Under the pieces are notes generated by a model. It was not told the origin of the DNA and ran no database searches. It saw nothing but the letters and a program-made list of their open reading frames with translations. The translations under genes were made by a program, and so were the position numbers. Shown here in pieces: positions 1-51,115 of a stretch of DNA of 64,000 nucleotides. How positions within the stretch are numbered: the stretch's first letter is position 1; each line of letters starts with the position of its first letter. The DNA comes from Synechococcus sp. UW140 (GTDB lineage Bacteria > Cyanobacteriota > Cyanobacteriia > PCC-6307 > Cyanobiaceae). The DNA is taken from assembly GCA_943367705.1 (NCBI GenBank), contig CALRJV020000002.1:204895-268894 (forward strand), read 5' to 3'.

Positions 1-893
1 GCATCAGGGACAGCGAGATCACGGTCGGCACCGACGGCAACGTGAGCGGCAGCGCCGGTCTCACCGGCACGGCCTCGGCCAGCACCACCACCGGTGATGC
101 CGCCGCCGAGACCTCCCTGTCCGCCAAGGGCATCAACAACGATGTGAGGATCGCCATCGGCCAGGCCGGCAACGTGACCGGCACGGCCTCGGCCGCTGAC
201 CAGGGCACGACGGGCGCCGCCGTCACCGGCGACGCCGACGCCGAATCCGAACTCAAGGCGATCGGCATCCATCTGGGCAGCGGCACCCCGATCTCGATCG
301 GGACCACCGGCAACATCACCGGCACCGCTTCTGCCACGGCTCCCACTGTGCTGTCCACCACCACCACCGGTGATGCCACCACCGAGGTGGAATCCACCGC
401 CATCGGCATCAAGGGCAGCCGCGGCAGCTCGATCGGCCCCGGCCTCTCCGGCAACATCACCGGCACGGGCACCGGCAGCGCCGTCGGCGCCGCCAACACG
501 ATCACCGGACTGGCCACCGGCATGACCGATGCCCTCGTGGTGGGCATCAAGAAGGTCAACCTCTCCGCCGACAACGTGACGGCCCAGGGCACCGGCACCT
601 ACCGGACCGACGCCACCAACGTCAACGGGGATGCCAGTGCCACCTCCGACGTGATGGTGGCGGGTCTGCTGGGGCGCGGGAACACCGCCAGCCTCAGCGG
701 TGATCTGACGGCCACCGCGGTGCTCAGCAACATCGTGATGGCCTCCACCACCACAGGATCGGCCACCGCCACCGCCAACAGCAACGCGGTGGGCATGAGC
801 GGGTACAACGTCAACATCCTGCAAAGCGGCAACATCAACGCCTCGGCCGTGAGCGACACGATCGCGATGGCCAACACGGTGACGATCCCGTGA
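1..893 (+). CDS. C-terminal part of a Thr/Gly/Ala/Ser-rich repeat protein (putative secreted beta-solenoid/surface protein); 5' end outside window
   Basis: Frame is open from base 3 (IRDSEITVGTDGN...) to TGA at 891-893. Six 40-47 aa units of the pattern [V/I]TGxA...TTTGDAxA...xG[I/L/M]...GN. Lies directly upstream of a T1SS operon. Confidence 0.75.
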   Translation, partial: IRDSEITVGTDGNVSGSAGLTGTASASTTTGDAAAETSLSAKGINNDVRIAIGQAGNVTGTASAADQGTTGAAVTGDADAESELKAIGIHLGSGTPISIGTTGNITGTASATAPTVLSTTTTGDATTEVESTAIGIKGSRGSSIGPGLSGNITGTGTGSAVGAANTITGLATGMTDALVVGIKKVNLSADNVTAQGTGTYRTDATNVNGDASATSDVMVAGLLGRGNTASLSGDLTATAVLSNIVMASTTTGSATATANSNAVGMSGYNVNILQSGNINASAVSDTIAMANTVTIP

Positions 894-926
894 TGGTCTG
901 ACCCCTCGCCTGAGAGGTCTCCCCCG

Positions 927-953
927 GGGGGCCGGATCCACGATCCGGCCCCC
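927..953 (+). other. Perfect 12-bp GC-rich intergenic stem-loop (no U tail)
   Basis: GGGGGCCGGATC-CAC-GATCCGGCCCCC in the 99-bp gap between the first two ORFs. Confidence 0.7.
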
Positions 954-992
954 TCCCCGCTTCCGTTCCGGTCCCTGCGCCTGTCGCTCCCC

Positions 993-3056
993 ATGGCGTT
1001 CCAACCCATCACCACCGCCCTGTCGCGGGCCCTGGCCCTGCGCCTCGATCCGGGCACCACCTTCCTCGGCGGTGGCCTCCAGCTCACCATTTCCCCCAGC
1101 GCCCTGGCCAGCAACCGGGTGGTCCTGCCGGCTTCCCAGCCGATCGGCTCCGTCGCCTCCGCCCTGGGCCTGGGTCTCGGCTCCAGCCGGTTCTTCACGG
1201 CCCCCGACGACGCAGCCTTCTTCAACAGTCCCGGCCTCTCGGTGGTCACCGGTGGAGGATCGATCACCGGCAGCGCCGAGGCCTCGGCCAGCACCACGGG
1301 CCGCAACGACAACAGCGCCGAGGCCACGGCGGTCAATGTCGGCCTCGCCAATCTCCATCTGGTCTCCCGCGGTGGCGGCGTCCTGCGGATCGGCAATCCC
1401 GCCGATCCCCTGCGGGCGGCGGCGGCGGCGGCCACCCGTTCCCTGCTGGCGCCCCAGGCCACCCCGCCGCTGGCCGCCCAGCTGAGCGCCCTCGCCACGG
1501 TGCGGGGACTGGAGGGAGTCCCCGCCGCCGACCCCCCGGAGATCGTTTCCCTCCCCACCTTCTACGGCCAGCCCGTGGCCACGGTGCTCGCCAGCGCCGA
1601 TCTCGACCTGGATCCGGGGCCGGTCGCCACGACGGCCCGGGCCGTGGCCGATGCCCGGGGGATTGAGGGGTATCGGGTCATGGCCCTCTCCCCGGGGCCG
1701 GGATCCACCGCCCTCGTCGGCGGCATGGCCGCCGCCACCCTGGGCCTGGCCGGCGCACCGCCGACCGCCGCCCTGCCGGCGGACCTGTCGGCCACGGCCA
1801 TCGGCATCGACCATGCCGCATTGCGGGGGCCCGGCAGCGGTGCCGTGCTGTTCACGGGATCCGGTCTGGCCCTGCTGGAGACCGCCCCGGCCGCCGCCGC
1901 TGCGGCACCGGAGGCGGTGACGCTGCGCAGCCTGCGCGGCATCGGCATCCTCGGCAGCGACATCCAGAGCAACGGCGGCGATGCCACCGTGATGGCGATG
2001 GGGGGCTTTGCCGCACCACCGGCCGTGGGCCTGCTGCCCTCGATGGATGCGGCGGGCATCGACCGCTCCACGGTGCTCACCGGCTCCCGCAACGATGTGG
2101 TGATGGGCCGCATTCTCACCGAGCAGGAGGCCGGGGTGGATGCGGATGGGAATGGGACGATCTCACCCAACACCTTCCTGGATGCCTCTGCCCTGACGGG
2201 AGGAGACGGAGGCTTCGATGGCATCCGCAACAGTCTCATCCACACCGGTTCCGGCAGCGATGGGGTGTTTGGCTCCGCCAGTGGCAGCCGGATCGACACC
2301 GGCACTGACAATGACGCCATCCTTCTGGAGAGGGCCCGCAGCTCCGTTCTGGACGGGGGCTTCGGCAATGACAGCGTCCAGGTGAGTCAGCTGGCCGTGG
2401 GCAACCGGCTCAACGGTGGTTTCGGCAACGACACGGTGGACGTGGCCGCCGGTGACGGCAACCTGCTGGACGGCGGTTTCGGCCAGGACCTGGTGGTGGG
2501 CGGCAGCGGCCAGAACACGTTTCTGCAGTCCAACGCCGGGGCGGCCCTGGATGCTGCCAGCCGCAGCGCCGCTCCCGGGGCGTCCTTCGCGGAGCGGCTC
2601 GCCGATCCCGCCTTCTGGGCGGGGCTGGGGACCCAGCAGAAACAGGACCTCTGGCAGAGCGGTGAGCTGCTCCAGGGCGGCCAGGTGCTGCGTGCCGACA
2701 CGATGAGCAACTTCGATGCCAGCCGCGGCGACATTCTCGAACTGAGCAGTTCCCTTGGCTCGCTCACCCAGTCCCTCTGGGACACCCAGGGGGCCATCTT
2801 CGGCGTGCAGAACGGGCAGCTGGTGGTCCGTGACGGGCCGGCGAACAGTCAGCTGGGTGTCGTGGTCGGAACCCTGGCCGACATCCGCTCCCTCGGCATC
2901 GGATCTCCCTCGCTCGCCTACGCCACCGACACCCGCCAGCTGATGTTCGATGCCGATGGGAACTGGAAGCAGGGCAGCCAGAGCCTCGGGACCGTGAACA
3001 TGTCCGATCCGTCCGTCCTCACCAAATCCAACATCCACTTCGGCAGCGGCAGCTGA
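993..3056 (+). CDS. RTX-like Ca-binding repeat protein, putative T1SS substrate (687 aa)
   Basis: Nonapeptide-like repeats GGFGNDSVQV, GGFGNDTVDV, GGFGQDLVVG, TGSGSDGVFG. C-terminal LAYATDTRQLMFDADG resembles RTX C-termini. Upstream of hlyB/hlyD. Confidence 0.75.
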   Translation: MAFQPITTALSRALALRLDPGTTFLGGGLQLTISPSALASNRVVLPASQPIGSVASALGLGLGSSRFFTAPDDAAFFNSPGLSVVTGGGSITGSAEASASTTGRNDNSAEATAVNVGLANLHLVSRGGGVLRIGNPADPLRAAAAAATRSLLAPQATPPLAAQLSALATVRGLEGVPAADPPEIVSLPTFYGQPVATVLASADLDLDPGPVATTARAVADARGIEGYRVMALSPGPGSTALVGGMAAATLGLAGAPPTAALPADLSATAIGIDHAALRGPGSGAVLFTGSGLALLETAPAAAAAAPEAVTLRSLRGIGILGSDIQSNGGDATVMAMGGFAAPPAVGLLPSMDAAGIDRSTVLTGSRNDVVMGRILTEQEAGVDADGNGTISPNTFLDASALTGGDGGFDGIRNSLIHTGSGSDGVFGSASGSRIDTGTDNDAILLERARSSVLDGGFGNDSVQVSQLAVGNRLNGGFGNDTVDVAAGDGNLLDGGFGQDLVVGGSGQNTFLQSNAGAALDAASRSAAPGASFAERLADPAFWAGLGTQQKQDLWQSGELLQGGQVLRADTMSNFDASRGDILELSSSLGSLTQSLWDTQGAIFGVQNGQLVVRDGPANSQLGVVVGTLADIRSLGIGSPSLAYATDTRQLMFDADGNWKQGSQSLGTVNMSDPSVLTKSNIHFGSGS

Positions 3057-3104
3057 GCGGAGGGTGCCCTGCCCGGTTCCGATCGTTCCCCGTGGCTTTG
3101 ACCC

Positions 3105-3920
3105 ATGCTTCCTGTTTCCCGGCTCCACCTCGATCTCCGCAGCGCCCTTGATGCCATGGCCCGCCGGCCGCTGCACGAGCTGCTCGACCAGCACGGGCTG
3201 CTCCAGGCGCTGGCCCGGGATCTGGCCCTGAAGGCCCTGCGGGAGGACGTCCGCTTCACGGAGGAGGAACGGCAGGCGGTGCTGAGCCGAGTCTGCGCCG
3301 GACTGCCCTGCCCCGCCCCCTCCAGCCTGGAGGGCGACTGGATCGCCACCCTGCCCGAGGACCTGCGGGACACCGTGCGGCAGCGGTGGGATCACCTCCG
3401 CCACCAGAAGGCGCTGGAGGATCGCTACGGCGAGCGGGTGGAGGCCCATTTCCTCGAACGCCGTGCAGATCTGGAGCAGGTGGTGTTCCGGCTCCTGCGG
3501 CTGCCCCAGCAGGGTCTCGCCGAGGAGCTCTATCTCCGGCTGGTCGATGACGGTGCCGGTTTCGGGGAGCTGGCCAGCCGCTATTCGATCGGGGACGAAA
3601 GCATCACCCGCGGCATCGTCGGCCCGATCGAACTGTCCCAGCTGAACCCCACCCTGCGCGGAGTCCTGGGCTCTCTGGCGGTGGGGGACATCCATCCCCC
3701 CTTCCTGCTGGAGCAGGCGATCCTGGTGGTGCGGCTCGAACATCGCCGACCTGCCAGCCTGAGCGAGGACCTGCGCCACCGCCTCCTCGAGGAACTGCTG
3801 CAACCGGACCTGCACTCCTGCATCGAAGCGGTCCTGGCGGAGCTGCGCCACTCCCTCGCCGCGGAGCAGGCCCCGCTGGCTGCGGTACCGGCTCCGGCGC
3901 TGGCTGTGGCAGGAGGCTGA
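3105..3920 (+). CDS. PpiC/parvulin-type peptidyl-prolyl isomerase associated with T1SS
   Basis: Rotamase-like segment AEELYLRLVDDGAGFGELASRYSIGDESITRGIVGP...GDIHPPF; stop lies 3 bp before the ABC transporter start. Confidence 0.8.
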   Translation: MLPVSRLHLDLRSALDAMARRPLHELLDQHGLLQALARDLALKALREDVRFTEEERQAVLSRVCAGLPCPAPSSLEGDWIATLPEDLRDTVRQRWDHLRHQKALEDRYGERVEAHFLERRADLEQVVFRLLRLPQQGLAEELYLRLVDDGAGFGELASRYSIGDESITRGIVGPIELSQLNPTLRGVLGSLAVGDIHPPFLLEQAILVVRLEHRRPASLSEDLRHRLLEELLQPDLHSCIEAVLAELRHSLAAEQAPLAAVPAPALAVAGG

Positions 3921-3923
3921 GCC

Positions 3924-7015
<3,092 letters not shown>

Positions 7016-7019
<4 letters not shown>

Positions 7020-8449
7020 GTCCTTCCAGCAACGGCAACGGCAATGGCCATGGCACAGCCCATGCCAACGGCAACGGCAACGGCCACAGCCACAGCCACG
7101 CAACATCCCAGGCCACCGGCAGCCAGGCCGCCCGCACGGCCACCCTGGCTCCCCCCGAGGAGGCCACCCTGCCCTTGGTGCGCCTCTCCCGCAGTCGCCG
7201 TCGCACCCATCTGCCCCGTTCCACCCGCGGCTGGAGCCGCGCCATCGTCTGGAGCCTGATCGGGCTGACCGGCTTCGGTGTGATCTACGGCTCCGTGGCC
7301 CGGATCGATTCCTCGATCAGCACCACGGGCAAGCTGCGCCCCATCGGTGGCACCCTCGCGGTGCTCCCCCCGTTCACCGCTCCGATCCAGCGGGTCCGGG
7401 TCCGGGACGGACAGACGGTGAAGACCGGCGACGTGCTGGTGGAATTCGACAGTCAGCAGGCCCGCCGCGAGCGCCGCGACCTGCTGGCCCAGGCCGAACT
7501 CTGGCGCAGGCAGGTGAACCAGGCCGCCCGGCAGCTCAACCTCCCTCCCCTGCCGGGGAGCAGCCGGGAGGAGCGGCAGGTGCTGGCCCTGGAGCGCCGG
7601 GACATCCAGCTGCGTCATCGGGTGGCCCTGCAGCGACTGCGACGCAGCCAGGCCGGTGAGCGGGAACAGGCCGACGTGCTGGTGGCGTTGCGGTCCCGCT
7701 ACGCCCTCAATGCCAACATCCGCGCCCGCATGGCCCAGCTGGCCCGGGAGGGCGCCATCTCCCATCTGGAGCTGGAGCGTCAGGACGAGCGCCAGATGGA
7801 TCTGCTGAGCACCATCCGGCGCACCGAGCAGCAGATGGCCGCCGCCGGCAGCGGGGTGGTCGAGAGCTTGACCAACCAGGAACAGGTGGGCACTGAAAAC
7901 GCCCGTCGGCTCTGGGACCGCTACGACGAGGCCCGCCAGCGTCTCCTGGAGACCACCTCCCGGCTGGGCCAGGTGGAGGAGCGTCTCCGCCTCGGTCGGG
8001 TGGTGGCGCCCCGTCCGGGGAGGGTGTTCGACCTCCAGGCCCGGGCCGGAGAGCTCCCCACCCCGGGCCGTCCGCTGCTGAAGCTGGTGGGGCAGGGGGG
8101 ACTGGAGGCGGAACTGGCGGTCTCCAACCGGGACATTGCCTTCCTGCGGCCGGGAATGCCGGTGGACGTGCGGGTGACCTCGCTTCCGTTCACCGATTAC
8201 GGCTCCCTCCAGGGCACCGTGGTGCGGGTGGGGGCGGATGCGCTGCCCCCTGACCAGCGCACGGGGCAGGAGTCCTTCCCCGCGATCGTGCGTCTCGACC
8301 GCAGCAGCTTGGGTCGCCGGGGCCAGTCCTATCCCCTCCAGGCCGGCATGGCAGTGACGGGGATGGTGCAGCTGGGCTCGAGGCCGGTGCTGGCCCTGCT
8401 CAACGATCGGGTGGGAGGCTTCCTGGACGCCACCCGCACCATCCGCTGA
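7016..8449 (+). CDS. hlyD: HlyD family membrane fusion protein
   Basis: Single TM, VRDGQTVKTGDVLVEFD lipoyl-like half motif, long coiled coil, C-terminal LQAGMAVTG; ATGA overlap with hlyB. Confidence 0.88.
7031..7099 (+). repeat. Hexamer microsatellite-like repeats (AACGGC, CACAGC) encoding NGNGNGH/HSHSH in the HlyD N-terminus
   Basis: aacggcaacggcaatggccat ... aacggcaacggcaacggccacagccacagccac read directly from the sequence. Confidence 0.7.
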
Positions 8450-8452
8450 CCG

Positions 8453-11047
8453 CTAAGCCACCGCCATGGCACCGCCACTGGCAGGGACGCCGGTCGTGTG
8501 CAGGGCCGGCAGCTGGGCGAGGGCGGTGACGCTCCTGTCGGATCCCAGCAGCACCAGTCGGCTGCCCAGGTCCCCGGTGGCGATCGCCAGCTGGTCGATC
8601 CCGGTGCTTCGGGCATCCATGCCGGCGACCAGCTGATCGAGGGGAGCGATCGGCAGCAGCCGGGCCTGGCCGATCCCGTCGAGCCCTGCCGGCGTCAGGT
8701 CGATCACGTTCCCGGCCGCCCCGGGTAGAACGCCCTCCAGTCGCAAGGAGACCTGGTCGGTGAGACCGATGCCATCGGCCGTCGTGGACGGGCTGAGTTC
8801 CAGGTCGGCCAGCACCGGCAGGACGAACTTGCTGTCGGCCGCCATCGCGCGGATGGCCTCCACGCCCGCCAGGACGAAGCGATCGCGACCCTGCCCGCCG
8901 CTGACCACCAGGCCGGCGGCCGGTGCGCTCCCGGCCGGCGGCCGGGCGGAAAGATCCAGCTCGAACGTGTCGTCTCCGTCCCCACCCTCGAGCCGCAGGG
9001 TCTCGGCAGCGGCGACCAGCCGGTCGTCTCCCGCCCCGCCCCGCACCGCCTCGAAGCCGCTGATGCCCCCCAGGATGCCGCTCGCCTCGCCCTGGCGGAG
9101 ATCGACGCTCACCGGCTCCTGCCAGGCGCCGTAGTCGAGCCCATCCACGCCGTTCCCAGCCTCCAGCACCCCATCGAGCACCCCCCGGGCCCCCATCGAC
9201 ACCAGCGCATCCCCGTCCCCGAGTGCGAAATTCTCCAGCCCACGGAAGTTCAGCGATCCGATGGTCCCTTCTCCGGGGCCATCCAGGCTGAGCCGCAGGG
9301 GGTCGGCTCCCAGGTCGTCCGGATGGAGTTCCTCGGACGTTTCGGAGCTTGCCACGGTCCTGAGGGTGTCGAACCCGTCGCCGCCGTCGACGGACCCGGA
9401 CAGGGCCGCCGCCGGGAGCAGGATCAGGTCATCCCCCGCCGCCGTGTCGAGCGTCACCACCGCCCTTTCTCCGGATGCCAGGGTCAGGGTCAATCCGTCA
9501 TCGCCGTCCGCCAGTCGGATGGCATTGCTGGAATCCGGCGCCAGCGCCACGGTGGACGACGCCACCCTGCCATTGACCAGCAGCCCGTTGGAACCGCTTC
9601 CCAGCGAGAGGCGCGAATCGATCACGGCGCCTTCCACCCTCAGCTGGTCATCGCCATCCCCGAGGAGCACGTCCGACTGCATCAGGGCGATCCGCTGGAG
9701 TTCGCCGTCCCGTCCGTCCGGGCCCTCGAGCCGGACGTTGATGCTGACCAGATCGTCGCCGCCTCCCACATCCAGCAGGCTGTCGACCAGTCCAAGGGCG
9801 CGGGCCCGCAGCTGCAGGGAGGCATCGTCCTGCCCGGCCTGGGGGGAGGGGATGTCCAGGATCAGGCCAGGGCCTGACCCCTCCAGGTCCAGGAATCCGC
9901 TGGAGATCGTGACCCGGTCGTCCCCATCCCCCAGGAGGATGGAGCTGTTCTGCATCGCCTGGGACAGCAGATCGATCCCCAGCTGGCGGTGCTCCGGGGC
10001 CGTCGGGGCCCGGAGCTGGAAGCGGGCCAGGCTGCTGAGCTCCAGGGAACCGCCACCGCCGATGTCCTGGAGCTGGCTGTCCAGCATGCCGATAAGGGAC
10101 TCCAGGATCTGCCCCCGGACGGTTCCGCCGGCCAGCAGGGCGAGGTCGATGACGTCGGTGACCTGCAGGCGGATGTCATTGGTCTCGGGGCCGAACAGCA
10201 GCCGCGCCTGATTCAGACCTGTGTTCCGGCTCTCCATCGCCAGATCGGCGTCGTTGAGCACCGAAAGGCTGAGCAGGTTGAGCCGCCGGTCGGAGCTCAC
10301 CTCCACCAGGGGGGTGGCGACGTTGCGCAGGTCGATCACCGCGTCGGTGATGGCCCCGAGTTCGTTCCGGAAGCTGGTGCTGGCTGCCCCCTCCACCGAG
10401 CGGCTGACGATCCCCTCGTTGCTGCGGAGCACCACCCTGAGGGAGGGGATCTCGGGCTCCACTGCCATGGCCATGGTCGTGGCTGTGGCAGCGGCGGTCT
10501 CCCTGCCCGCGTCCATGTCCGCCGCGGGGGGTGATGCCGTGGGGCGGGTGGCTTCGAGACGGGCCGCAGCGACGGCCAGGGGCTGGGAAGAGGAGCCCGC
10601 GGCCAGGGAGCGGGCTGCGGCGGGTGGCAGCTCCTGGGAGGGGCTGGCGAGGGCGCCGGCCGTCGGCCCCGCCGCCTGCGACGGGCTCCAGCGCCCCGGA
10701 CCGTTCAGGGACTCCGGCAGTTCCCCTGGCGCGACCCCGTCGGCCCGGGCGGGGTCGGCGGGTGGCGTCGGGGCACCCAGCGCCCCATCGGTGGCCTGCG
10801 AGTCCCCTCGGGGGGCAGGGCCCACGGCGCCACCGTTGCCGGGATCCCCGCCAGCGGCGACCCCACCGGGGGAGGACGGCTCCCCCGGTGGGGTCGCCGC
10901 CACGGCCACGTCCTGCATCAGGTAGAGAACGGCCAGCCACAGGGCCGTACCACTCAGGACGCTCTCAAGGGACAGTCGGCCTGAATCCTGCCGGAGACTC
11001 AACGCCTTGCCGAGTTGGCGACCGAAATGGCGGACGGCCTGACCCAT
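8453..11047 (-). CDS. Ca-binding RTX-like repeat protein (864 aa), putative secreted/surface protein
   Basis: AAGGAG RBS before ATG 11047; about 12 GxGDD-type repeats (LGDGDDRVTI, GGGDDLVSI, GGAGDDRLVA, GGDGDDTFEL); convergent with hlyD. Confidence 0.75.
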   Translation of the reverse strand: MGQAVRHFGRQLGKALSLRQDSGRLSLESVLSGTALWLAVLYLMQDVAVAATPPGEPSSPGGVAAGGDPGNGGAVGPAPRGDSQATDGALGAPTPPADPARADGVAPGELPESLNGPGRWSPSQAAGPTAGALASPSQELPPAAARSLAAGSSSQPLAVAAARLEATRPTASPPAADMDAGRETAAATATTMAMAVEPEIPSLRVVLRSNEGIVSRSVEGAASTSFRNELGAITDAVIDLRNVATPLVEVSSDRRLNLLSLSVLNDADLAMESRNTGLNQARLLFGPETNDIRLQVTDVIDLALLAGGTVRGQILESLIGMLDSQLQDIGGGGSLELSSLARFQLRAPTAPEHRQLGIDLLSQAMQNSSILLGDGDDRVTISSGFLDLEGSGPGLILDIPSPQAGQDDASLQLRARALGLVDSLLDVGGGDDLVSINVRLEGPDGRDGELQRIALMQSDVLLGDGDDQLRVEGAVIDSRLSLGSGSNGLLVNGRVASSTVALAPDSSNAIRLADGDDGLTLTLASGERAVVTLDTAAGDDLILLPAAALSGSVDGGDGFDTLRTVASSETSEELHPDDLGADPLRLSLDGPGEGTIGSLNFRGLENFALGDGDALVSMGARGVLDGVLEAGNGVDGLDYGAWQEPVSVDLRQGEASGILGGISGFEAVRGGAGDDRLVAAAETLRLEGGDGDDTFELDLSARPPAGSAPAAGLVVSGGQGRDRFVLAGVEAIRAMAADSKFVLPVLADLELSPSTTADGIGLTDQVSLRLEGVLPGAAGNVIDLTPAGLDGIGQARLLPIAPLDQLVAGMDARSTGIDQLAIATGDLGSRLVLLGSDRSVTALAQLPALHTTGVPASGGAMAVA

Positions 11048-46199: not shown

Positions 46200-46928
46200 T
46201 CACCAGGGAATCGGCGAGCCGTCCCAGGCGAGGAAGGCGCCGCTGCCGGCGGCCGTCTGGCCCTCCAGCACATCGAGCAGGTGGGCGGCGGCCCGCTCCG
46301 GGCTGAACAGGGCCGTGGGCGGCACGGAGCGGCCGAAGGGGGCCGAGAGCGGGGTGGCGGTGGTGCCGGGATGGAGCAGGGTCACGCAGGCCAGGGGCAG
46401 GCGGCGCTGCCATTCGATCGCCAGGGTGCGCAACAGCTGGTTCTGGGCCGCCTTGGCCGCCCGGTAGGCGTACCAGCCGCCGAGACGGTTGTCGCCGATG
46501 CTGCCCACCCGGGCCGAAAGGCTGGCGAAGTGCACCGGCCGGTCCCTGGGCAGGGCGGCCTCGATCGCCTGGGCCAGCAGCAGGGGACCGAAGGCGTTGA
46601 CGGCGAAGCTGCGCTCCAGGGCCTGGCGATTCACCTGGGTGAGGCGCTTCTCCGGCTGCAGGGCCCCGTCATGGAGCAGGCCGGCTGTGTTGATCACGAT
46701 CCGGAGCGGCGCGAGCTCACCGGCGGCACGGGCCGCCAGCGCGGCCAGGCTGCCGTCATCGGCCAGATCGAGCGGGATGTCCGCCCCGCGGCGGCCGGCG
46801 GTGCGGACCCGCAGAGCCGGCGCCCGCCGGGCCAGCTCGGCCGCGAGCGCCCGGCCGATGCCCCCCGGGCCCACGATCAGGGCCTGACCCTCCCAGTCGT
46901 GCCAGTGGGGGGTGGTGGCGCTCGGCAT
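46200..46928 (-). CDS. Short-chain dehydrogenase (CsgA/C-factor-like)
   Basis: GPGGIG, NTAGLLH, SARVGSIGDNRLGGWYAYRAAKAAQNQ, LHPGTTAT; only the last 242 codons of ORF 46200..49451. Confidence 0.88.
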   Translation of the reverse strand: MPSATTPHWHDWEGQALIVGPGGIGRALAAELARRAPALRVRTAGRRGADIPLDLADDGSLAALAARAAGELAPLRIVINTAGLLHDGALQPEKRLTQVNRQALERSFAVNAFGPLLLAQAIEAALPRDRPVHFASLSARVGSIGDNRLGGWYAYRAAKAAQNQLLRTLAIEWQRRLPLACVTLLHPGTTATPLSAPFGRSVPPTALFSPERAAAHLLDVLEGQTAAGSGAFLAWDGSPIPW

Positions 46929-46991
46929 GGCGGGCAGGGGGATGGCGCATGATGGCAGTTCCTTCCGGGGAACCGCCCCGCGCATCGGTCC

Positions 46992-47912
46992 ATGGGTCTG
47001 CGCATCACCGTGCTGGGTCGGGGTGCCTGGGGCGGCACATTGCTGCGGCTCTGGGAGCGCCAGGGGCACCACCTGCGCAGCTGGTCGCGGCGGGATGGGG
47101 GAGAGCCGGGGGCCCTGCTGCAGGACTGCGACCTGGTGGTGGCGGCCGTGTCGATGGTGGGGGTCGCCCCCCTCGGTCACAGCCTCCAGGGACGCTGGCC
47201 GGAGCGCCTGCCGCTGCTGAGCTGCAGCAAGGGAATCGATCTGGACAGCCTCTGCACCGCCAGCCAGCTCTGGCGGCGCCACCTGCCGGCGGTGCCGCTG
47301 GCGGTGCTGAGCGGCCCGAATCTGGCGGAGGAACTGGAAAGGGGGCTGCCGGCGGCCAGCGTGCTCAGCAGCGACGACCCCGCTCTGGCCCGCCGGCTGC
47401 AGGAGCAGCTGCGGGCCCCGCACCTGCGGCTCTACACCAACACCGATCCCATCGGCACCGAGGCGGCCGGGGCCCTCAAGAACGTGATCGCCCTGGCCGC
47501 CGGCATCAGCGACGGCCTGGGGCTGGGGGCGAATGCCAAGGCCTCCCTGCTGTGCCGGGGTCTGGCGGAGATCGCCGTCGTGCTCCAGGCCCTTGGCGGC
47601 CAACCCACCACCCTCTACGGCCTGGCCGGCCTGGGGGACCTGCTGGCCACAGCCAACAGCAGCCTGAGCCGCAACTACCGCTTCGGCAGCCTGCTGGCGG
47701 AGGGCTTTGACGAAGCCACCGCCCTCGGCCGCATCGGCGCCACCGTGGAGGGGCCCCGCACCGCCCGCGCCACCCTGGCCCTGGCCGAGAGGGAGGGCTG
47801 GCAACTGCCCATCTGCGGCCAGGTGGTGCGGCTGCTGGCGGGCGAGCTGGAGGCCCGGCAGGCGGTGCAGGAGCTGATGCAGCGCGACCTGCGGGCCGAA
47901 GCGGCCCCCTGA
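46992..47912 (+). CDS. gpsA: NAD(P)H-dependent glycerol-3-phosphate dehydrogenase
   Basis: GRGAWG, SKGI, LSGPNLAEE, ALKNVIALAAG, GLGDLLAT, SRNYRFG. Confidence 0.93.
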   Translation: MGLRITVLGRGAWGGTLLRLWERQGHHLRSWSRRDGGEPGALLQDCDLVVAAVSMVGVAPLGHSLQGRWPERLPLLSCSKGIDLDSLCTASQLWRRHLPAVPLAVLSGPNLAEELERGLPAASVLSSDDPALARRLQEQLRAPHLRLYTNTDPIGTEAAGALKNVIALAAGISDGLGLGANAKASLLCRGLAEIAVVLQALGGQPTTLYGLAGLGDLLATANSSLSRNYRFGSLLAEGFDEATALGRIGATVEGPRTARATLALAEREGWQLPICGQVVRLLAGELEARQAVQELMQRDLRAEAAP

Positions 47913-48029
47913 ATCGTGCCGCCGGTCCCGGTGTGGCGGCACGGTGCAATGGGGCGACCGTCCTGCGCCGGGGGGCGCCGGAGCCGGATTGTCCGGCATG
48001 ATCCTTTCAATCCTTTGTGAATCCTTGCC

Positions 48030-49079
48030 GTGAGCCGGCACGTCAAGGCCGCCATCGCCGCTCTCCGGGCCACGGGCCGGCGACTGCTCCACGGTTGCCG
48101 CCGCCACCCGATCCTGCTCACGGCCCCCCTGGCCGTCGTGGCGGTGGGGGCCGGTTTCGCCGCCCAGGAGCTGATCCCGGCGGGGGCCTCCCGATCGGAT
48201 CCCGACCTGCTCGAAGCTCTGATCGCCCAGCCCCGGGAGGTCTCCCAACAGGCCACCGATGCCAGCGAAGCCCCCGACAAGGACCTGCTGGCGGCGGCCT
48301 CCCTGCAGGCCCAGCGCACCAGCCTCAGCCATCCCGACCCCGCGCTGGTGGAACCGGAGGCCGGCGCTGAGGTCCCCCTCGAGATCCGGGTGGCCCTGCT
48401 GGGCGCCTCCCCCTCCCCCCGGCTGGGCGCCAGCGGCTACTGGCGACTGGTCGACCGGGATGGCCGTCCCGTCCAGGAGGGTGGCCCCGCTGACTCCCCT
48501 GACCTGGCGGCGGCCATGGCCGGACGGTCCGAGGTCTGGATGGAGACGGGGTCCGACCAGGTCCTGCAGGTGGACGGGCGTCCCTACGAAGGCCGCCTGA
48601 GGGTGCTGCGCGGATCCCAGGGCCTGCAGCTCGTGAACCACCTCTCCCTGGAGCGCTACATCAGCTCGGTAGTGGGGGCCGAAATGCCCAGCGGCTGGCA
48701 CATGGAAGCCCTCAAGGCCCAGGCCGTGGCGGCCCGGTCCTACGCCATGGCCCACATGGCCCGTCCGGCCAGTGCCCACTGGCACCTGGGCGACACCACC
48801 CGCTGGCAGGCCTACCGGGGCCTGGGCAGCGTCAATGCCCGCACCCGCCAGGCCACCGCCAGCACCTCCGGGGTGATCCTCAGCTACCAGGGGGGCATCG
48901 TTGAAAGCCTCTACGCGGCCACCAACCGCATCACCCAGGAGGCCCATGGTCACCTGGGGGCCAGCATGAGCCAGCACGGCGCCCAGGATCTGGCGGAGCA
49001 GGGACTGCGGTACAACGAGATCCTTGGGCGTTACTACCGGGGCGCCTCCCTGGCCCGACTGCAGGCCGGTGCGAGCTGA
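48030..49079 (+). CDS. SpoIID/LytB domain protein
   Basis: YEGRLR, VNHLSLERYISSVVGAEMP..W..EALKAQAVAARSYA, MSQHGA, EIL..YY. Confidence 0.88.
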   Translation: MSRHVKAAIAALRATGRRLLHGCRRHPILLTAPLAVVAVGAGFAAQELIPAGASRSDPDLLEALIAQPREVSQQATDASEAPDKDLLAAASLQAQRTSLSHPDPALVEPEAGAEVPLEIRVALLGASPSPRLGASGYWRLVDRDGRPVQEGGPADSPDLAAAMAGRSEVWMETGSDQVLQVDGRPYEGRLRVLRGSQGLQLVNHLSLERYISSVVGAEMPSGWHMEALKAQAVAARSYAMAHMARPASAHWHLGDTTRWQAYRGLGSVNARTRQATASTSGVILSYQGGIVESLYAATNRITQEAHGHLGASMSQHGAQDLAEQGLRYNEILGRYYRGASLARLQAGAS

Positions 49080-49899
49080 GCGCCATTGGCAACGGGCCCG
49101 TGAGGTCTCGGAGCTGGCCCGCCGCCAGGGGGCCCTAGTGCCCCTCGACACACGTGTCCTGCCGGGTCCCGGCATGGAGCCCTTCGTCCTGCGCGAGCTC
49201 CTGTCCTCCACGCCCCGGCACCTGCGCCAGGGGGGACCCCGGCCCAATCCGTTCCTGCCCTGGGACAGGCCTCTGCAGGTGGAGCTGCTTGAGCCGGCCC
49301 ATGTGCTGCTGCTGAACAAGTACCCGGTGCAGGAGGCCCACCTGCTGGTGATCACCCGTGACTGGCGCCCCCAGGGCGGCTGGATCGAGCCACCCGACTG
49401 GCAGGCGGTGGCCCAGGTGGGCCGGGACACCGGTGGCCTGTGGTTCTTCAACAGCGGCGCCCGCTCCGGCGCCAGCCAGCCCCATCGCCATCTCCAGCTG
49501 CTACCGCGCCGACCCGGCGAGCCCAGTTGCCCCCTGGCGCCGCTGTTTCTGGAGCAGCTGGAGACGGGGGAGCCCGCCTGGAGCTGGGCCTACCGACTCA
49601 GCCGGCGCACCGACCCTGCGGGTGGCTCCGATCTGGAGGGCATTTACCACGCCCATGCCCGGGCCCTGGGGCTGGGGGAACCGGGCCGCGACGGCGAGCC
49701 CCTGCACCCCTACAACCTGCTGTTCGACGACGACTGGTTCCTGACCGTGCGCCGGGTGCGGGAGCACGGGGCCGGATTCAGCGTCAATGCCCTGGGCTTC
49801 GCCGGTTTCCTTCTGATCACCGAGGGCTCCGACAGGGGCTGGCTGGAACGCCACGGTCCCTGGGCCCTGCTGAAGGACGTGGCGGCCCCCGCTGTCTGA
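49069..49899 (+). CDS. ATP adenylyltransferase / Ap4A phosphorylase
   Basis: NPFLP, LLNKYPV, FFNSGARSGASQPHRHLQ, SVNALGFAG. Confidence 0.88.
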   Translation: MRAERHWQRAREVSELARRQGALVPLDTRVLPGPGMEPFVLRELLSSTPRHLRQGGPRPNPFLPWDRPLQVELLEPAHVLLLNKYPVQEAHLLVITRDWRPQGGWIEPPDWQAVAQVGRDTGGLWFFNSGARSGASQPHRHLQLLPRRPGEPSCPLAPLFLEQLETGEPAWSWAYRLSRRTDPAGGSDLEGIYHAHARALGLGEPGRDGEPLHPYNLLFDDDWFLTVRRVREHGAGFSVNALGFAGFLLITEGSDRGWLERHGPWALLKDVAAPAV

Positions 49900-50834: not shown

Positions 50835-50973
50835 TGGCGGCATTCATCGCGGCCAGCTGACGCTCGATGCCATCGCGCCAGAAGCTGAGCAGGCGCAGCT
50901 TGCGTTCCTGATACCGCCGCAGGGCGCTGGCTCCGGACTCCGACCCGGAGCAGTACCCGAAGGGAGGAATCAT
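50782..50973 (-). CDS. Small coiled-coil hypothetical protein (63 aa) overlapping the sigma factor 3' end
   Basis: MIPPFG...YQERKLRLLSFWRDGIERQLAAMNAAISTLEQQM with heptad pattern; 3' part of ORF 50782..51144. Confidence 0.6.
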   Translation of the reverse strand: MIPPFGYCSGSESGASALRRYQERKLRLLSFWRDGIERQLAAMNAAISTLEQQMHRDQVDPQG

Positions 50974-51115
50974 GACAAAATCTGCAGAGTGGGACCGTTC
51001 TAGCGAGCCCGTCGTTCCATCCGGGGCTGCCAAGTCCACGCACCCCCCAACGGTTGGGCCTGCCGTATCCCGCCTTACCGTCCTCTGGCCACCCACACCA
51101 CCAGCCTGTCGCAAT

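What the first reader, a model, noticed from the sequence alone, without database searches (positions are those of the whole stretch)
1..11047. Multi-cargo type I secretion locus with three related repeat proteins: candidate uncharacterised surface-layer or aggregation system
Seen: rotamase-hlyB-hlyD are tightly coupled (3-bp gap, ATGA overlap). Two repeat proteins lie upstream on the same strand and a third converges, with its stop 3 bp from the hlyD stop. All three share an A/G-[I/L/M]-x-x-S-type beta-strand motif (AIGI, ARGIEG, ALGLVDS, IALMQS). No TolC is in the locus. Known: cyanobacterial T1SS export RTX-type S-layer and motility proteins (Synechocystis Sll1951 via Sll1180/Sll1181; marine Synechococcus SwmA/SwmB) and use a TolC encoded elsewhere. 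Inference: one exporter secretes three paralogous subunits that co-assemble a surface lattice, fibre or colony matrix. This is the best candidate in the window for a new system.
Basis: partly seen in the sequence, partly recalled or inferred. Interest (0 to 1): 0.72.

Follow-up and report, generated by a model that had tools for sequence, protein, structure and literature searches.

The report
Cyanobium surface-protein type I secretion locus
This is a real, conserved secretion-gene cluster of freshwater picocyanobacteria that most likely exports a very highly expressed repeat protein to build a cell-surface coat; it is a new variant of a known kind of system, not three related subunits.

Summary
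The gene layout is as described. A parvulin-like gene, an hlyB-like gene and hlyD are tightly coupled. Two large acidic, cysteine-free proteins lie upstream (P1, P2) and a third converges (P6). The three are not paralogues. P1 is made of about 16-18 copies of a 43-residue repeat that is absent from P2 and P6. P2 and P6 share only short RTX calcium-binding motifs and a general beta-solenoid build.

The transporter is a true HlyB-type exporter. Its C39-like domain is catalytically dead, and it carries an extra cNMP-like N-terminal domain.

In GTDB genomes the parvulin-hlyB-hlyD triad is present in every picocyanobacterial locus where that side is on the contig. P6 follows hlyD in 43 of 43 informative loci of this subfamily. 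The upstream cargo varies: P1+P2 in some loci, a single larger or giant protein in others.

In four metatranscriptomes, P1 RNA contigs are 10-100 times deeper than 20 kb of neighbouring genes.

Best reading: a dedicated type I secretion operon for an abundant, fast-evolving surface coat (S-layer-like), with a chaperone and a conserved anchored RTX partner. It is a new variant of a known kind. Function is untested.

The parts
1..893 (+). P1, last 296 of 900 codons (the window cuts the gene; full length in L001:7199-9901). It is Thr/Ala/Gly/Ser-rich, pI 4.3, has no Cys and no signal peptide, and holds about 16-18 copies of a 43-residue repeat. Proposed major secreted surface-coat protein.
   Evidence: Homologues occur only in picocyanobacteria and evolve fast (69%, 57%, then about 40% identity). 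RNA-contig depth is 61/30/19/15 in four metatranscriptomes. No Pfam or PDB sequence match.
927..953 (+). Perfect 12-bp GC-rich hairpin (GGGGGCCGGATC cac GATCCGGCCCCC) in the 99-bp P1-P2 spacer. Candidate intra-operon attenuator or mRNA stabiliser.
   Evidence: A hairpin of at least 8 bp sits in the same spacer in 15 of 19 related loci, with different stem sequences in distant loci.
993..3056 (+). P2, 687 aa, pI 4.4, no Cys, no signal peptide. The N-terminal beta-solenoid has turns of about 45-50 residues. Three canonical RTX nonapeptides lie at aa 455-503, followed by a C-terminal mixed alpha/beta domain. Proposed second cargo, or a Ca2+-dependent accessory of P1.
   Evidence: AlphaFold pLDDT 88.9, pTM 0.89. 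No PDB fold match better than E = 0.2. The profile hits the CyaA RTX domain at 2.3e-7 and MpAFP at 3.7e-5 over aa 415-513 only. 68 homologues, all picocyanobacterial.
3105..3920 (+). Parvulin-like (SurA/PrsA-type) protein, 271 aa: helical N-terminal part plus one parvulin domain (aa about 120-215). No signal peptide or TM segment. Proposed cytoplasmic chaperone of the secretion system.
   Evidence: best PDB match SurA, 3.8e-5; 14 of 14 orthologues hit Pfam Rotamase. It sits directly upstream of hlyB in every locus where that side is on the contig. The family has 521 representative clusters at E <= 1e-10.
3924..7019 (+). HlyB-type ABC exporter, 1031 aa.
   Evidence: TIGR01846 at 705 bits. Best PDB match is E. 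coli HlyB 7sgr, 2.7e-160.
4026..4289 (+). cNMP-binding-like domain of the exporter (aa 35-122). Ligand unknown.
   Evidence: Pfam PF00027 at 4.3e-9. The same architecture is studied in HetC, whose domain binds ppGpp in vitro (PMC10986499).
4824..5153 (+). C39-like domain (aa 301-410), catalytically dead.
   Evidence: Pfam PF03412 at 23 bits. No conserved Cys or His anywhere in aa 285-440 across 34 orthologues.
5262..6707 (+). Transmembrane domain (aa 447-715) and nucleotide-binding domain (aa 779-928) of the exporter.
   Evidence: Pfam ABC_membrane 1.8e-48 and ABC_tran 3.5e-34.
7016..8449 (+). HlyD-family membrane fusion protein, 477 aa. It has an Asn/Gly/His-rich cytoplasmic tail and one TM segment at aa about 76-95.
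   Evidence: (TIGR01843, 164 bits).
8453..11047 (-). P6, 864 aa, pI 4.2, no Cys. Conserved companion of the transporter.
10907..10969 (-). P6 conserved hydrophobic helix (aa 27-47). It is preceded by a basic stretch and the conserved motif GRLSLE, and followed by small residues (A-x-A-like). It is either a membrane anchor or a signal peptide.
   Evidence: Kyte-Doolittle 1.55; helix 27-47; conserved across about 20 homologues.
10451..10906 (-). P6 Pro/Ala/Gly/Ser-rich disordered linker (aa 48-199).
   Evidence: pLDDT 23-40. The region varies in sequence and length in the family alignment.
8456..10450 (-). P6 beta-solenoid / RTX beta-roll (aa 200-716; four canonical and several degenerate GGxGxD motifs) and a conserved C-terminal domain (aa 717-864).
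   Evidence: pLDDT 80-97 over most of aa 200-700. Foldseek: RsaA S-layer protein on top (E = 8e-4, low TM-score), serralysin RTX rolls at probability 1.0. Profile hits: MpAFP 5.3e-7, serralysins 1e-3. Motifs.

Best explanation
The locus is a dedicated HlyB/HlyD-type type I secretion (T1SS) operon of freshwater picocyanobacteria (the Cyanobium / Synechococcus 5.2-type clade). It sits together with the surface proteins it handles.

Shown:
- The exporter is an HlyB-group ABC protein. Its C39-like domain has lost the protease residues, and it carries an additional N-terminal cNMP-like domain.
- It is translationally coupled to an HlyD adaptor and preceded by a SurA/PrsA-like parvulin gene with no export signal.
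- P2 and P6 carry genuine RTX motifs.
- P1, P2 and P6 are acidic and cysteine-free.
- P1 RNA is far more abundant in situ than the RNA of its neighbours.

Inferred:
- P1 and P2 have no signal peptides. They are fed C-terminus first through HlyB-HlyD and a TolC encoded elsewhere, fold outside with Ca2+, and coat the cell.
- P1 is the bulk subunit (a beta-solenoid of 43-residue repeats, probably glycosylated). P2 supplies the Ca2+-dependent RTX module that P1 lacks.
- The dead C39-like domain docks unfolded cargo as in HlyB. The parvulin-like protein keeps cargo export-competent in the cytoplasm. The cNMP-like domain gates export in response to a small ligand.
- P6 is the invariant partner. It is held by its N-terminal hydrophobic helix, and its 150-residue linker lets the RTX solenoid reach the envelope or surface, where it tethers or organises the coat.
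- The coat genes are the variable cassette. Other strains carry one larger or giant protein instead (RTX motifs in the >3000-aa ones).
For: Transporter identity. Dead C39 domain. Gene coupling.

Synteny in 57 picocyanobacterial loci:
- The Rot-HlyB-HlyD triad is complete wherever both sides are on the contig.
- P6 lies directly after hlyD in 43 of 43 informative loci of the HlyB >= 64% group, convergent in 42.
- P1+P2 lie upstream in about 24 loci. In about 13 loci there is a single Cys-free Thr/Ala/Gly/Asp-rich protein instead, from 788 to more than 3047 aa. Its C-terminal roughly 300 aa resemble the P1 repeats in most of these loci.

Cargo hallmarks: pI 4.2-4.4, zero Cys, no N-terminal signal in P1 or P2, and RTX nonapeptides in P2 (3) and P6 (4). 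RTX profile hits go to known T1SS substrates: CyaA, MpAFP, serralysins, AlgE. The top Foldseek hit of P6 is the T1SS-secreted S-layer protein RsaA.

Abundance: RNA contigs from four independent metatranscriptomes cover P1 at depth 61/30/19/15. The transporter and P6 are at 0-8, and 20 kb of neighbouring housekeeping genes at about 0-2. Single contigs span P1-P2-Rot. A conserved hairpin after P1 fits differential expression within the operon.

Surface-type evolution: in strains whose flanking genes (pnp, cyclophilin, ribBA, argC) are 92-99% identical, P1 is 69-72%, P2 70-71% and P6 53-57% identical.

Precedent: the Synechocystis S-layer protein Sll1951 is exported by Sll1180/Sll1181/Slr1270 (as cited in PMC11594277). 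S-layers and spinae are described on freshwater Synechococcus/Cyanobium (PMC8955281).
Against: - No experiment: secretion, surface location and lattice formation are all inferred.
- P1 has no RTX motif and no match to any solved structure or Pfam family. Its fold could not be predicted here.
- The RsaA match of P6 has low TM-scores (0.11), and the P2 model matches nothing at E < 0.2.
- Contig depth is a crude measure of expression, and the RNA runs are sediment metatranscriptomes of a 95-99% identical relative, not this strain.
- The N-terminal helix of P6 could be a cleavable Sec signal. P6 would then be a periplasmic protein rather than a T1SS-related surface tether.
- The parvulin-like protein may be unrelated to secretion despite its synteny. 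Its catalytic status is unresolved.
- No TolC was located, because the rest of the genome was not available.
Confidence: 0.6

Rival explanations
1. The cargo proteins are not a lattice. They are fibrillar adhesins or anti-grazing surface fibres (LapA/SiiE/SwmB-like) secreted by the same T1SS. They mediate aggregation, microcolony formation or predator avoidance.
For: In sister loci the cargo slot holds larger or giant proteins, those over 3000 aa carrying RTX motifs, as in the giant Synechococcus proteins discussed for defence (PMC9387257). P2 and P6 are elongated beta-solenoids, and Foldseek lists Ag43, MpAFP and 'large adhesion protein' among the weak or local matches. Grazer-induced microcolonies and spinae are known in Cyanobium (PMC8955281).
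Against: P1 is only 900 aa, and its very high RNA level suits a bulk coat protein better than a sparse adhesin. No LapG/LapD-type release genes lie in the locus.
Confidence: 0.22
2. One reading: one exporter secretes three paralogous subunits (P1, P2, P6) that co-assemble into one structure.
For: All three are acidic, Cys-free and beta-rich, with a period of about 43-50 residues. P2 and P6 share RTX motifs. All three occur together in about two thirds of related loci.
Against: BLASTP, HMM and hhalign find no homology between P1 and the other two. The P2-P6 similarity is limited to 45 RTX columns. P6 has an N-terminal hydrophobic helix and a disordered linker that the others lack. About 13 loci keep P6 and have lost P2, and some also lack any P1-like repeats.
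Confidence: 0.08
3. P6 is not handled by the T1SS. Its N-terminal helix is a Sec signal or anchor, and it is a periplasmic or inner-membrane Ca2+-binding protein that only happens to be encoded next to hlyD. The T1SS serves only the upstream genes.
For: The N-terminus has a basic n-region, a 15-20 residue hydrophobic core and an A-x-A-like stretch, and it is conserved across the family. T1SS cargo normally lacks such a segment.
Against: RTX rolls followed by a conserved C-terminal domain are the hallmark of T1SS substrates. 43 of 43 co-occurrence with hlyD argues for a functional link. The sequence conservation of the helix (GRLSLE..LTGTALWLA.LYLM) is unusual for a mere signal peptide.
Confidence: 0.3
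4. The transporter is a peptidase-containing ABC exporter (PCAT, as in HetC or bacteriocin systems) that cleaves and exports small double-glycine peptides. The large neighbours are unrelated.
For: Pfam Peptidase_C39 and cNMP_binding hits give the same domain order as HetC (PMC10986499). There are weaker NCBIfam hits to NHLP and bacteriocin exporters.
Against: No Cys or His is conserved in the C39-like domain in 34 orthologues. The best family and structure matches are HlyB. The intergenic spaces (99, 48, 3, -4, 3 and 129 bp) leave no room for small peptide genes.
Confidence: 0.03

Closest known systems
Synechocystis PCC 6803 S-layer biogenesis system (Sll1180 HlyB-like, Sll1181 HlyD-like, Slr1270 TolC; cargo Sll1951)
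   Same: A cyanobacterial HlyB/HlyD-type T1SS with TolC encoded elsewhere, exporting a large acidic RTX-type surface protein (as cited in PMC11594277; PMC3034196).
   Different: Here the cargo genes sit next to the transporter. P1 has no RTX repeats. A parvulin-like gene and the anchored P6 gene are fixed parts of the module. Whether Sll1180 has the same cNMP + dead-C39 N-terminus was not checked here.
Caulobacter crescentus RsaA S-layer with the RsaD/RsaE/RsaF T1SS
   Same: An abundant, acidic, Cys-free, Ca2+-dependent beta-rich S-layer protein of about 1000 aa, secreted by an adjacent ABC/MFP pair. RsaA is the top Foldseek hit of the P6 model.
   Different: The match is weak (TM 0.11, probability 0.33). 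RsaA is a single protein that both anchors and forms the lattice. Here the functions appear split between P1, P2 and P6. There is no sequence similarity.
E. coli haemolysin T1SS (HlyB-HlyD-TolC)
   Same: It is the best structural relative of the exporter (7sgr, 2.7e-160). Both have a catalytically dead C39-like domain, an adjacent HlyD, and RTX cargo with no N-terminal signal (PMC11026475 and PMC5018854, listed).
   Different: This locus has about 300 extra N-terminal residues including a cNMP-like domain. It has no acyltransferase (HlyC). The cargo is structural, not a toxin. A parvulin-like gene is added.
HetC of Nostoc PCC 7120 (cNMP-binding + C39 + ABC exporter)
   Same: The same domain order. 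The cNMP-like domain of HetC is required in vivo and binds ppGpp in vitro (PMC10986499), which gives a precedent for ligand control.
   Different: HetC has an active Cys/His protease and is thought to export a peptide. Here the catalytic residues are absent and the neighbours are large proteins.
Marine Synechococcus SwmA (S-layer) and SwmB (giant surface protein)
   Same: Picocyanobacterial surface proteins, with RTX-type repeats (SwmA) or giant size (SwmB), tied to envelope function and grazing resistance (PMC3034196; PMC4949707; PMC9387257). Sister loci here carry giant proteins in the cargo slot.
   Different: No sequence comparison was possible. Swimming is not reported for this freshwater clade (PMC10161378). 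The more distant Rot-HlyB-HlyD loci (HlyB 43-57% identical) have no adjacent cargo or P6.
LapA/MpIBP-type RTX adhesins retained in their T1SS by an N-terminal retention module
   Same: P6 has the same logic of parts: an N-terminal retaining element, a long flexible linker, RTX repeats and a C-terminal domain. MpAFP is the best PDB profile hit of P6.
   Different: In P6 the retaining element would be a single hydrophobic helix, not a folded plug. No LapG/LapD-like genes are present in the locus. Retention is pure inference.

Membership tests
Type I secretion system, HlyB group (ABC with C39-like domain) | ABC exporter with a transmembrane domain and a nucleotide-binding domain of the HlyB family | tested here: met
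   Pfam ABC_membrane 1.8e-48 and ABC_tran 3.5e-34. TIGR01846 at 704.8 bits (cutoff 725.55, so just below trusted). Best PDB match HlyB 7sgr, 2.7e-160.
Type I secretion system, HlyB group (ABC with C39-like domain) | N-terminal C39-like domain that lacks the catalytic Cys (and His) | tested here: met
   Pfam C39 at 23.1 bits. No invariant Cys or His in aa 285-440 in 34 orthologues.
Type I secretion system, HlyB group (ABC with C39-like domain) | Adjacent HlyD-family membrane fusion protein | tested here: met
   ATGA overlap with hlyB. TIGR01843 at 164 bits (below its 208.65 cutoff) and HlyD_3 at 2.4e-17.
Type I secretion system, HlyB group (ABC with C39-like domain) | TolC-type outer-membrane factor | not testable with these tools
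   None was found among the locus genes, the genes called in the 10 kb upstream, or the ten further large window ORFs scanned. The rest of the genome was not available.
Type I secretion system, HlyB group (ABC with C39-like domain) | Cargo with C-terminal RTX nonapeptides (GGxGxDxUx) and no N-terminal signal peptide | tested here: inconclusive
   P2 meets it: 3 nonapeptides and no signal. P6 has 4 nonapeptides but also an N-terminal hydrophobic helix. P1 has no nonapeptide and no signal.
Type I secretion system, HlyB group (ABC with C39-like domain) | Secretion of the cargo depends on the transporter | not testable with these tools
   This needs knock-outs and exoproteomics.
Bacterial S-layer protein | Among the most abundant products of the cell | tested here: inconclusive
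   P1 RNA contigs are 10-100 times deeper than 20 kb of neighbouring genes in four metatranscriptomes. Contig depth is crude, and protein level was not measured.
Bacterial S-layer protein | Self-assembles into a regular two-dimensional lattice on the cell surface | not testable with these tools
   No microscopy or assembly data. The only structural hint is a weak Foldseek hit of P6 to RsaA.
Bacterial S-layer protein | Acidic, with few or no Cys, often Thr/Ser-rich and glycosylated | tested here: met
   P1 has pI 4.33, 0 Cys, and Thr 14.8% + Ser 9.4%. Glycosylation was not tested.
RTX protein family | Tandem Gly/Asp nonapeptides that form a Ca2+-binding beta-roll | tested here: met
   Met for P2 and P6: motifs, PDB profile hits to CyaA, MpAFP and serralysins, and Foldseek probability 1.0 to serralysin rolls for P6. 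Not met for P1 (0 motifs).
Peptidase-containing ABC transporter (PCAT; HetC, bacteriocin exporters) | Catalytic Cys and His in the C39 domain | tested here: not met
   Neither residue is conserved in 34 orthologues.
Peptidase-containing ABC transporter (PCAT; HetC, bacteriocin exporters) | Small precursor peptides with double-glycine leaders encoded nearby | tested here: not met
   The intergenic gaps are 99, 48, 3, -4, 3 and 129 bp, which leaves no room for such genes.
Parvulin-type PPIase / SurA-PrsA-like chaperone | PpiC-type rotamase domain | tested here: met
   Pfam Rotamase in 14 of 14 orthologues (best 2.5e-8; the window copy at 22.0 bits against a 21.7 cutoff). Profile hits to SurA at 3.8e-5, and weaker ones to Pin1 and PrsA.
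Parvulin-type PPIase / SurA-PrsA-like chaperone | Catalytic residues retained (active isomerase) | tested here: inconclusive
   The best-scoring aligned stretch falls in the first of SurA's two parvulin domains, which from my own knowledge is the inactive one. By eye, conserved His positions appear to be missing in the family alignment. No rigorous residue mapping was done.
LapA-type retained RTX adhesin system | LapG-type periplasmic protease and LapD-type c-di-GMP receptor next to the T1SS | tested here: not met
   None of the locus or flanking proteins has such domains.

The most novel reading that the evidence does not exclude
Rot-HlyB-HlyD-P6 is a previously undescribed picocyanobacterial surface-assembly module with three parts.
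1. P6 is secreted C-terminus first but stays held by its conserved N-terminal transmembrane helix. Its 150-residue linker is threaded through the HlyD/TolC conduit. This would be a new way of retaining a T1SS substrate, serving as the anchor for an exchangeable coat (P1+P2 or a larger or giant protein).
2. A cytoplasmic parvulin-like holdase is a dedicated T1SS chaperone.
3. P1 is the long-sought S-layer protein of freshwater Synechococcus/Cyanobium, the layer implicated in calcite nucleation during lake whitings, or the building block of the grazer-induced spinae.
Probability: 0.15. Interest if true: 0.75.

Novelty: new variant of a known kind. Interest (0 to 1): 0.5.

Why it matters
Freshwater picocyanobacteria are major lake primary producers. 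Their S-layers have been linked to calcite 'whiting' events, and their surface structures to grazing resistance and microcolony formation (PMC8955281). As far as my searches show, the genes behind these structures have not been assigned in this clade.

This locus gives a concrete, conserved and highly expressed candidate set:
- an exchangeable coat cassette (P1+P2, or a larger or giant protein);
- a fixed export and anchoring module.

The fast divergence of P1 and P6 between strains with near-identical flanks suggests selection by phages or grazers. The locus could therefore serve as a strain-level marker and is a likely determinant of who eats or infects whom.

Two mechanistic points would interest secretion specialists. 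One is a parvulin-like partner fixed to a T1SS across picocyanobacteria. The other is an RTX protein with an N-terminal membrane helix plus a long linker. The confident P2 model has no solved structural relative.

Tried and rejected
1. Paralogy of P1/P2/P6: rejected. BLASTP, the P1-repeat HMM, and hhalign with whole-family and repeat-unit profiles were all negative, apart from a 45-column RTX stretch shared by P2 and P6.
3. Peptide/bacteriocin exporter (PCAT): rejected, because the catalytic residues are lacking and there is no room for peptide genes.
4. TolC in the window: none found among the locus, upstream and large window ORFs scanned.
5. Extra paralogues or RTX proteins elsewhere in the window: none.
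6. DNA contamination as the source of the RNA contigs: unlikely, because 20 kb of adjacent genes are almost uncovered in the same runs.
7. Genomic island: not supported. GC is even across the region, and the locus sits next to ribBA-argC in both cargo types.
8. Autocorrelation for repeat period: uninformative, because unit length varies. It was replaced by the HMM approach.

Dead ends:
- The C39-like domain alone finds nothing in the PDB by phmmer.
- 'SYNW0193' occurs in no held paper, and the McCarren & Brahamsha 2009 paper is not held.
- Cluster look-ups of distant Rot relatives gave almost no names or taxa.
- No paper linking parvulins to T1SS appeared among the ten top-listed results.

Full report
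OBSERVATION

The window (about 70% G+C) begins inside a gene. ORF listing and translation give six genes in 1-11047:
- P1: ..893 +, only the last 296 codons.
- P2: 993-3056 +, 687 aa.
- Parvulin-like 'Rot': 3105-3920 +, 271 aa.
- HlyB-like ABC exporter: 3924-7019 +, 1031 aa.
- HlyD: 7016-8449 +, 477 aa.
- P6: 8453-11047 -, 864 aa.

There is a 3-bp gap between Rot and hlyB, an ATGA overlap between hlyB and hlyD, and 3 bp between the converging stops of hlyD and P6.

To the right lie ribBA (-) and argC (+). A public contig that encodes exactly the same P2 supplies the missing upstream DNA. On it P1 is 900 aa, preceded by a 680-bp spacer, a cyclophilin gene, a PNP_UDP gene, a murQ-like gene, DUF3110, dnaJ and dnaK.

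The closest named genome is Cyanobium gracile UHCC 0281 (HlyB 99% identical).

No TolC gene was found in the locus, among the genes called in the 10 kb upstream, or among the ten further large window ORFs scanned. Those are housekeeping genes: pgi, leuS, dapF, a D-Ala-D-Ala carboxypeptidase, uvrC, a CobN/Mg-chelatase-family gene, metH and an RNase II-type gene.

ARE THE THREE PROTEINS RELATED?

By sequence they are not.
- Pairwise BLASTP gives E >= 0.2.
- Family alignments were built from the homologue searches and compared profile to profile. P1 vs P2 has probability 8%. P1 vs P6 gives nothing. P2 vs P6 has probability 88%, but only over 45 columns of Gly/Asp repeat.
- P1 is made of at least 16-18 copies of a unit of about 43 residues, with consensus I-x-I-G-x-x-G-x-V-T-A-x-A-x-x-x-x-x-A-x-A-x-T-V-T-G-D-A-x-A. 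An HMM of that unit scores 459 bits on P1 and nothing on P2 or P6. An hhalign profile of the unit finds nothing either.

What the three do share is composition and build:
- pI 4.2-4.4 and no cysteine at all.
- All-beta predictions for P2 and P6, with turns of about 45-50 residues that taper into an RTX roll. That period is close to the 43-residue unit of P1.
- Canonical GGxGxDxUx nonapeptides in P2 (3) and P6 (4), and none in P1. In the whole window, nonapeptides cluster only in these two genes.

THE TRANSPORTER

- The ABC protein is HlyB-like. TIGR01846 scores 705 bits, and the best solved relative is E. coli HlyB in the HlyB/HlyD complex (2.7e-160).
- In front of the membrane domain it has a C39-type domain (Pfam, 23 bits) and, further N-terminal, a cNMP-binding-like domain (4.3e-9).
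- In an alignment of 34 orthologues no Cys or His is conserved anywhere in the C39-like region. It is therefore a dead, HlyB-style C39-like domain, not the active protease of HetC-type or bacteriocin exporters. The HetC paper sets out this distinction (PMC10986499).
- There is also no room for small precursor genes.
- The same paper shows that the cNMP-like domain of HetC is needed in vivo and binds ppGpp in vitro, which is a precedent for ligand control. By eye, the cassette here lacks the usual Glu/Arg of cAMP binders. That is my reading, not a test.

THE PARVULIN-LIKE PROTEIN

- All 14 orthologues tested hit Pfam Rotamase (best 2.5e-8). A family profile hits SurA (3.8e-5) and, more weakly, Pin1 and PrsA.
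- It has a helical N-terminal part plus one parvulin domain, and no signal peptide or membrane segment.
- An exhaustive search finds 521 representative clusters at E <= 1e-10, some from marine metagenomes.

SYNTENY

A scan of one genome per GTDB species with the exporter returned 57 picocyanobacterial loci. tblastn of all locus proteins against them and a simple GC3-based gene call show the following.

(i) Rot-hlyB-hlyD is present wherever both sides are on the contig. This includes a distant group (HlyB 43-57% identical) where the triad sits between urea-transporter-like ABC genes and a gene that looks like pyrG by its N-terminal sequence, with no large neighbours. Those two flank names are my reading of the ORF starts, not a Pfam result.

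(ii) In the closer group (HlyB >= 64%), a P6-like gene follows hlyD in 43 of 43 loci that have DNA there. It is convergent in 42 and co-directional once (Vulcanococcus limneticus).

(iii) The upstream slot varies.
- About 24 loci have P1+P2.
- About 13 loci have a single Cys-free Thr/Ala/Gly/Asp-rich protein abutting Rot, from 788 to more than 3047 aa (two run off the fetched DNA).
- The two largest carry 7-9 RTX nonapeptides. In most of these loci the C-terminal roughly 300 residues resemble the P1 repeats at 30-35% identity. The extreme C-termini fall into two conserved types that look alike by eye.
- One MAG carries both types in tandem.

(iv) The locus sits beside ribBA-argC in both types.

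(v) The locus evolves far faster than its flanks. In strains with pnp, cyclophilin, ribBA and argC at 92-99% identity, P1 is 69-72%, P2 70-71%, Rot 70-77%, HlyB 84-89%, HlyD 78-85% and P6 53-57% identical.

HOMOLOGUES AND STRUCTURES

- P1, P2 and P6 have no Pfam family.
- P2 and P6 homologues are confined to Cyanobium/Synechococcus-type genomes and metagenomes, and are named 'hypothetical' or 'calcium-binding protein'.
- P1 homologues are almost all the same. The more distant ones are called 'beta strand repeat-containing protein', and one weak hit comes from a Chitinophagaceae MAG.
- The P2 model is confident (pLDDT 88.9, pTM 0.89) but has no Foldseek match in the PDB better than E = 0.2. Only its RTX segment matches known proteins by profile: CyaA 2.3e-7, MpAFP 3.7e-5, and AlgE R-modules.
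- The P6 model has a helix at aa 27-47, a disordered Pro/Ala/Gly-rich stretch at aa 48-199, and a confident beta domain at aa 200-700. That domain is followed by a less confident but conserved C-terminal domain.
- For P6, Foldseek puts the T1SS-secreted S-layer protein RsaA on top (E = 8e-4, low TM-score) and gives probability 1.0 to the RTX rolls of serralysins. The profile hits MpAFP (5.3e-7) and serralysins.
- The P6 N-terminus is conserved in about 20 homologues: a basic stretch, then GRLSLE, a hydrophobic core (LTGTALWLA.LYLM), then small residues.
- The P1 profile finds nothing in the PDB. Its structure could not be predicted within the rules and caps.

EXPRESSION

Four independent sediment metatranscriptomes contain contigs 95-99% identical to the locus.
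- Depth over P1: 61, 30, 19 and 15.
- Depth then falls through P2 and Rot. It is 0-8 over hlyB, hlyD and P6, and about 0-3 over ribBA in three of the runs (up to about 7 in the fourth).
- Single contigs span P1-P2-Rot, and in one run continue into hlyB.
- The next 20 kb of the window (about 20 housekeeping genes) is almost uncovered in the same runs, mostly 0-2. The signal is therefore RNA, not DNA carry-over, and P1 is by far the most abundant transcript of the region.
- Contig depth is a crude measure and the runs come from a close relative, so this is supportive rather than quantitative.

A perfect 12-bp GC hairpin lies in the P1-P2 spacer. A hairpin of at least 8 bp occupies that spacer in 15 of 19 related loci, with different stem sequences in the distant ones. 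This fits an attenuator or stabiliser that sets P1 above the downstream genes.

INTERPRETATION

That this is a type I secretion operon is close to certain. That the upstream proteins are its cargo is a strong inference, resting on:
- adjacency and apparent co-transcription;
- absence of signal peptides;
- acidity and lack of Cys;
- RTX motifs in P2;
- a variable cargo slot that keeps a P1-like C-terminal region in most loci.

That the product is a cell-surface coat in which P1 is the bulk component rests on its abundance, its composition, its rapid divergence and precedent:
- Sll1951 exported via Sll1180/Sll1181/Slr1270 (PMC11594277);
- RsaA;
- SwmA (PMC3034196);
- S-layers and spinae seen on this clade (PMC8955281).

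A fibrillar adhesin or anti-grazing role is the main rival. The larger and giant proteins in sister loci favour it (PMC9387257).

P6 is the least expected part. It is the invariant companion of the transporter. It carries the hallmarks of a T1SS substrate (RTX roll plus a conserved C-terminal domain), yet it also has a conserved N-terminal hydrophobic helix and a linker long enough to cross the envelope.

Two readings remain open. P6 may be a tether kept at the membrane or in the conduit while its C-terminal part is outside, which is LapA-like logic by other means. Or it may be a Sec-exported periplasmic protein.

The roles proposed for the parvulin-like protein (cytoplasmic holdase) and the cNMP-like domain (ligand gate) are inferences from fixed synteny and from HetC.

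COMPARISON AND NOVELTY

The system works like the known T1SS/S-layer and T1SS/RTX-adhesin systems and passes the testable membership features of the HlyB group. It fails those of peptidase-containing exporters and of the Lap system.

New here are:
- the cargo families, which have no Pfam family; P1 finds nothing in the PDB and the confident P2 model has no solved relative;
- the fixed parvulin-like partner;
- the anchored RTX companion P6;
- the cassette-like exchange of coat genes.

I found no paper describing this locus. My searches cover only an open-access library. I rate it a new variant of a known kind, of moderate interest (0.5). Interest would rise if P1 proves to be the freshwater Synechococcus S-layer protein or if P6 proves to be a threaded tether.

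Noticed in passing
window 927-953: A perfect 12-bp GC-rich hairpin lies 34 nt after the P1 stop. An equivalent hairpin, with different stem sequences in distant relatives, sits in the P1-P2 spacer of 15 of 19 related loci. This suggests a conserved attenuator or RNA-stabilising element.
   Followed up: partly
window 7028-7105 (HlyD aa 5-30): The cytoplasmic N-terminal tail of HlyD is an Asn/Gly/His-rich low-complexity run (NGNGNGHGTAHANGNGNGHSHSH). A similar run is present in the closest relative (L003), but the region aligns poorly or not at all in more distant orthologues. It could be a metal-binding or flexible docking tail.
   Followed up: no
L015:60-9203 and L017:156-9203: In sister loci the cargo slot directly upstream of the parvulin gene holds giant Cys-free proteins of more than 3000 aa (both run off the fetched DNA), with 7-9 canonical RTX nonapeptides.
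   Followed up: partly
L050 and L012 (same contig, MAG Cyanobium sp. EUL_240): Two complete copies of the system lie in tandem: one with a large, unresolved cargo region upstream and one with P1+P2. Each has its own convergent P6-like gene.
   Followed up: partly
L017, L021, L031, L052: Record titles name Microcystis elabens, Pseudanabaena sp., 'uncultured Klebsiella sp.' and 'uncultured Prochlorococcus'. The loci nevertheless have the picocyanobacterial gene order and 43-75% identical HlyB, so the assemblies are probably mislabelled or mis-binned.
   Followed up: no
window 6511-6944: One metatranscriptome (X4) shows a depth spike of 88 over the ABC nucleotide-binding region, with contigs that run on into unrelated sequence (loose ends at 6622). 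This is most likely cross-mapping of a conserved ABC domain from another organism, not expression of this gene.
   Followed up: partly
L044-L049, L051, L052, L056-L058: A more distant version of the parvulin-hlyB-hlyD triad (HlyB 43-57% identical, HlyD only 387 aa) has no adjacent cargo or P6. In the loci inspected (L045, L046, L051, L056, L057) it lies between ABC-transporter genes that look like urt and a gene that looks like pyrG, both judged from ORF starts only. Its substrates must be encoded elsewhere.
   Followed up: partly
window 50972-52774 and 46200-49451: One gene encodes a 600-aa DUF3370 protein. On the minus strand there is a 1083-aa ORF in which only the C-terminal 200 residues match a short-chain dehydrogenase. 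The long N-terminal part is unexplained or the start is mis-called.
   Followed up: no
L002 (Cyanobium gracile UHCC 0281, 9-kb contig): The nearest isolate assembly breaks inside P2 at one end and inside P6 at the other. The repeat-rich coat genes therefore fragment short-read assemblies and will be under-reported in draft genomes.
   Followed up: no
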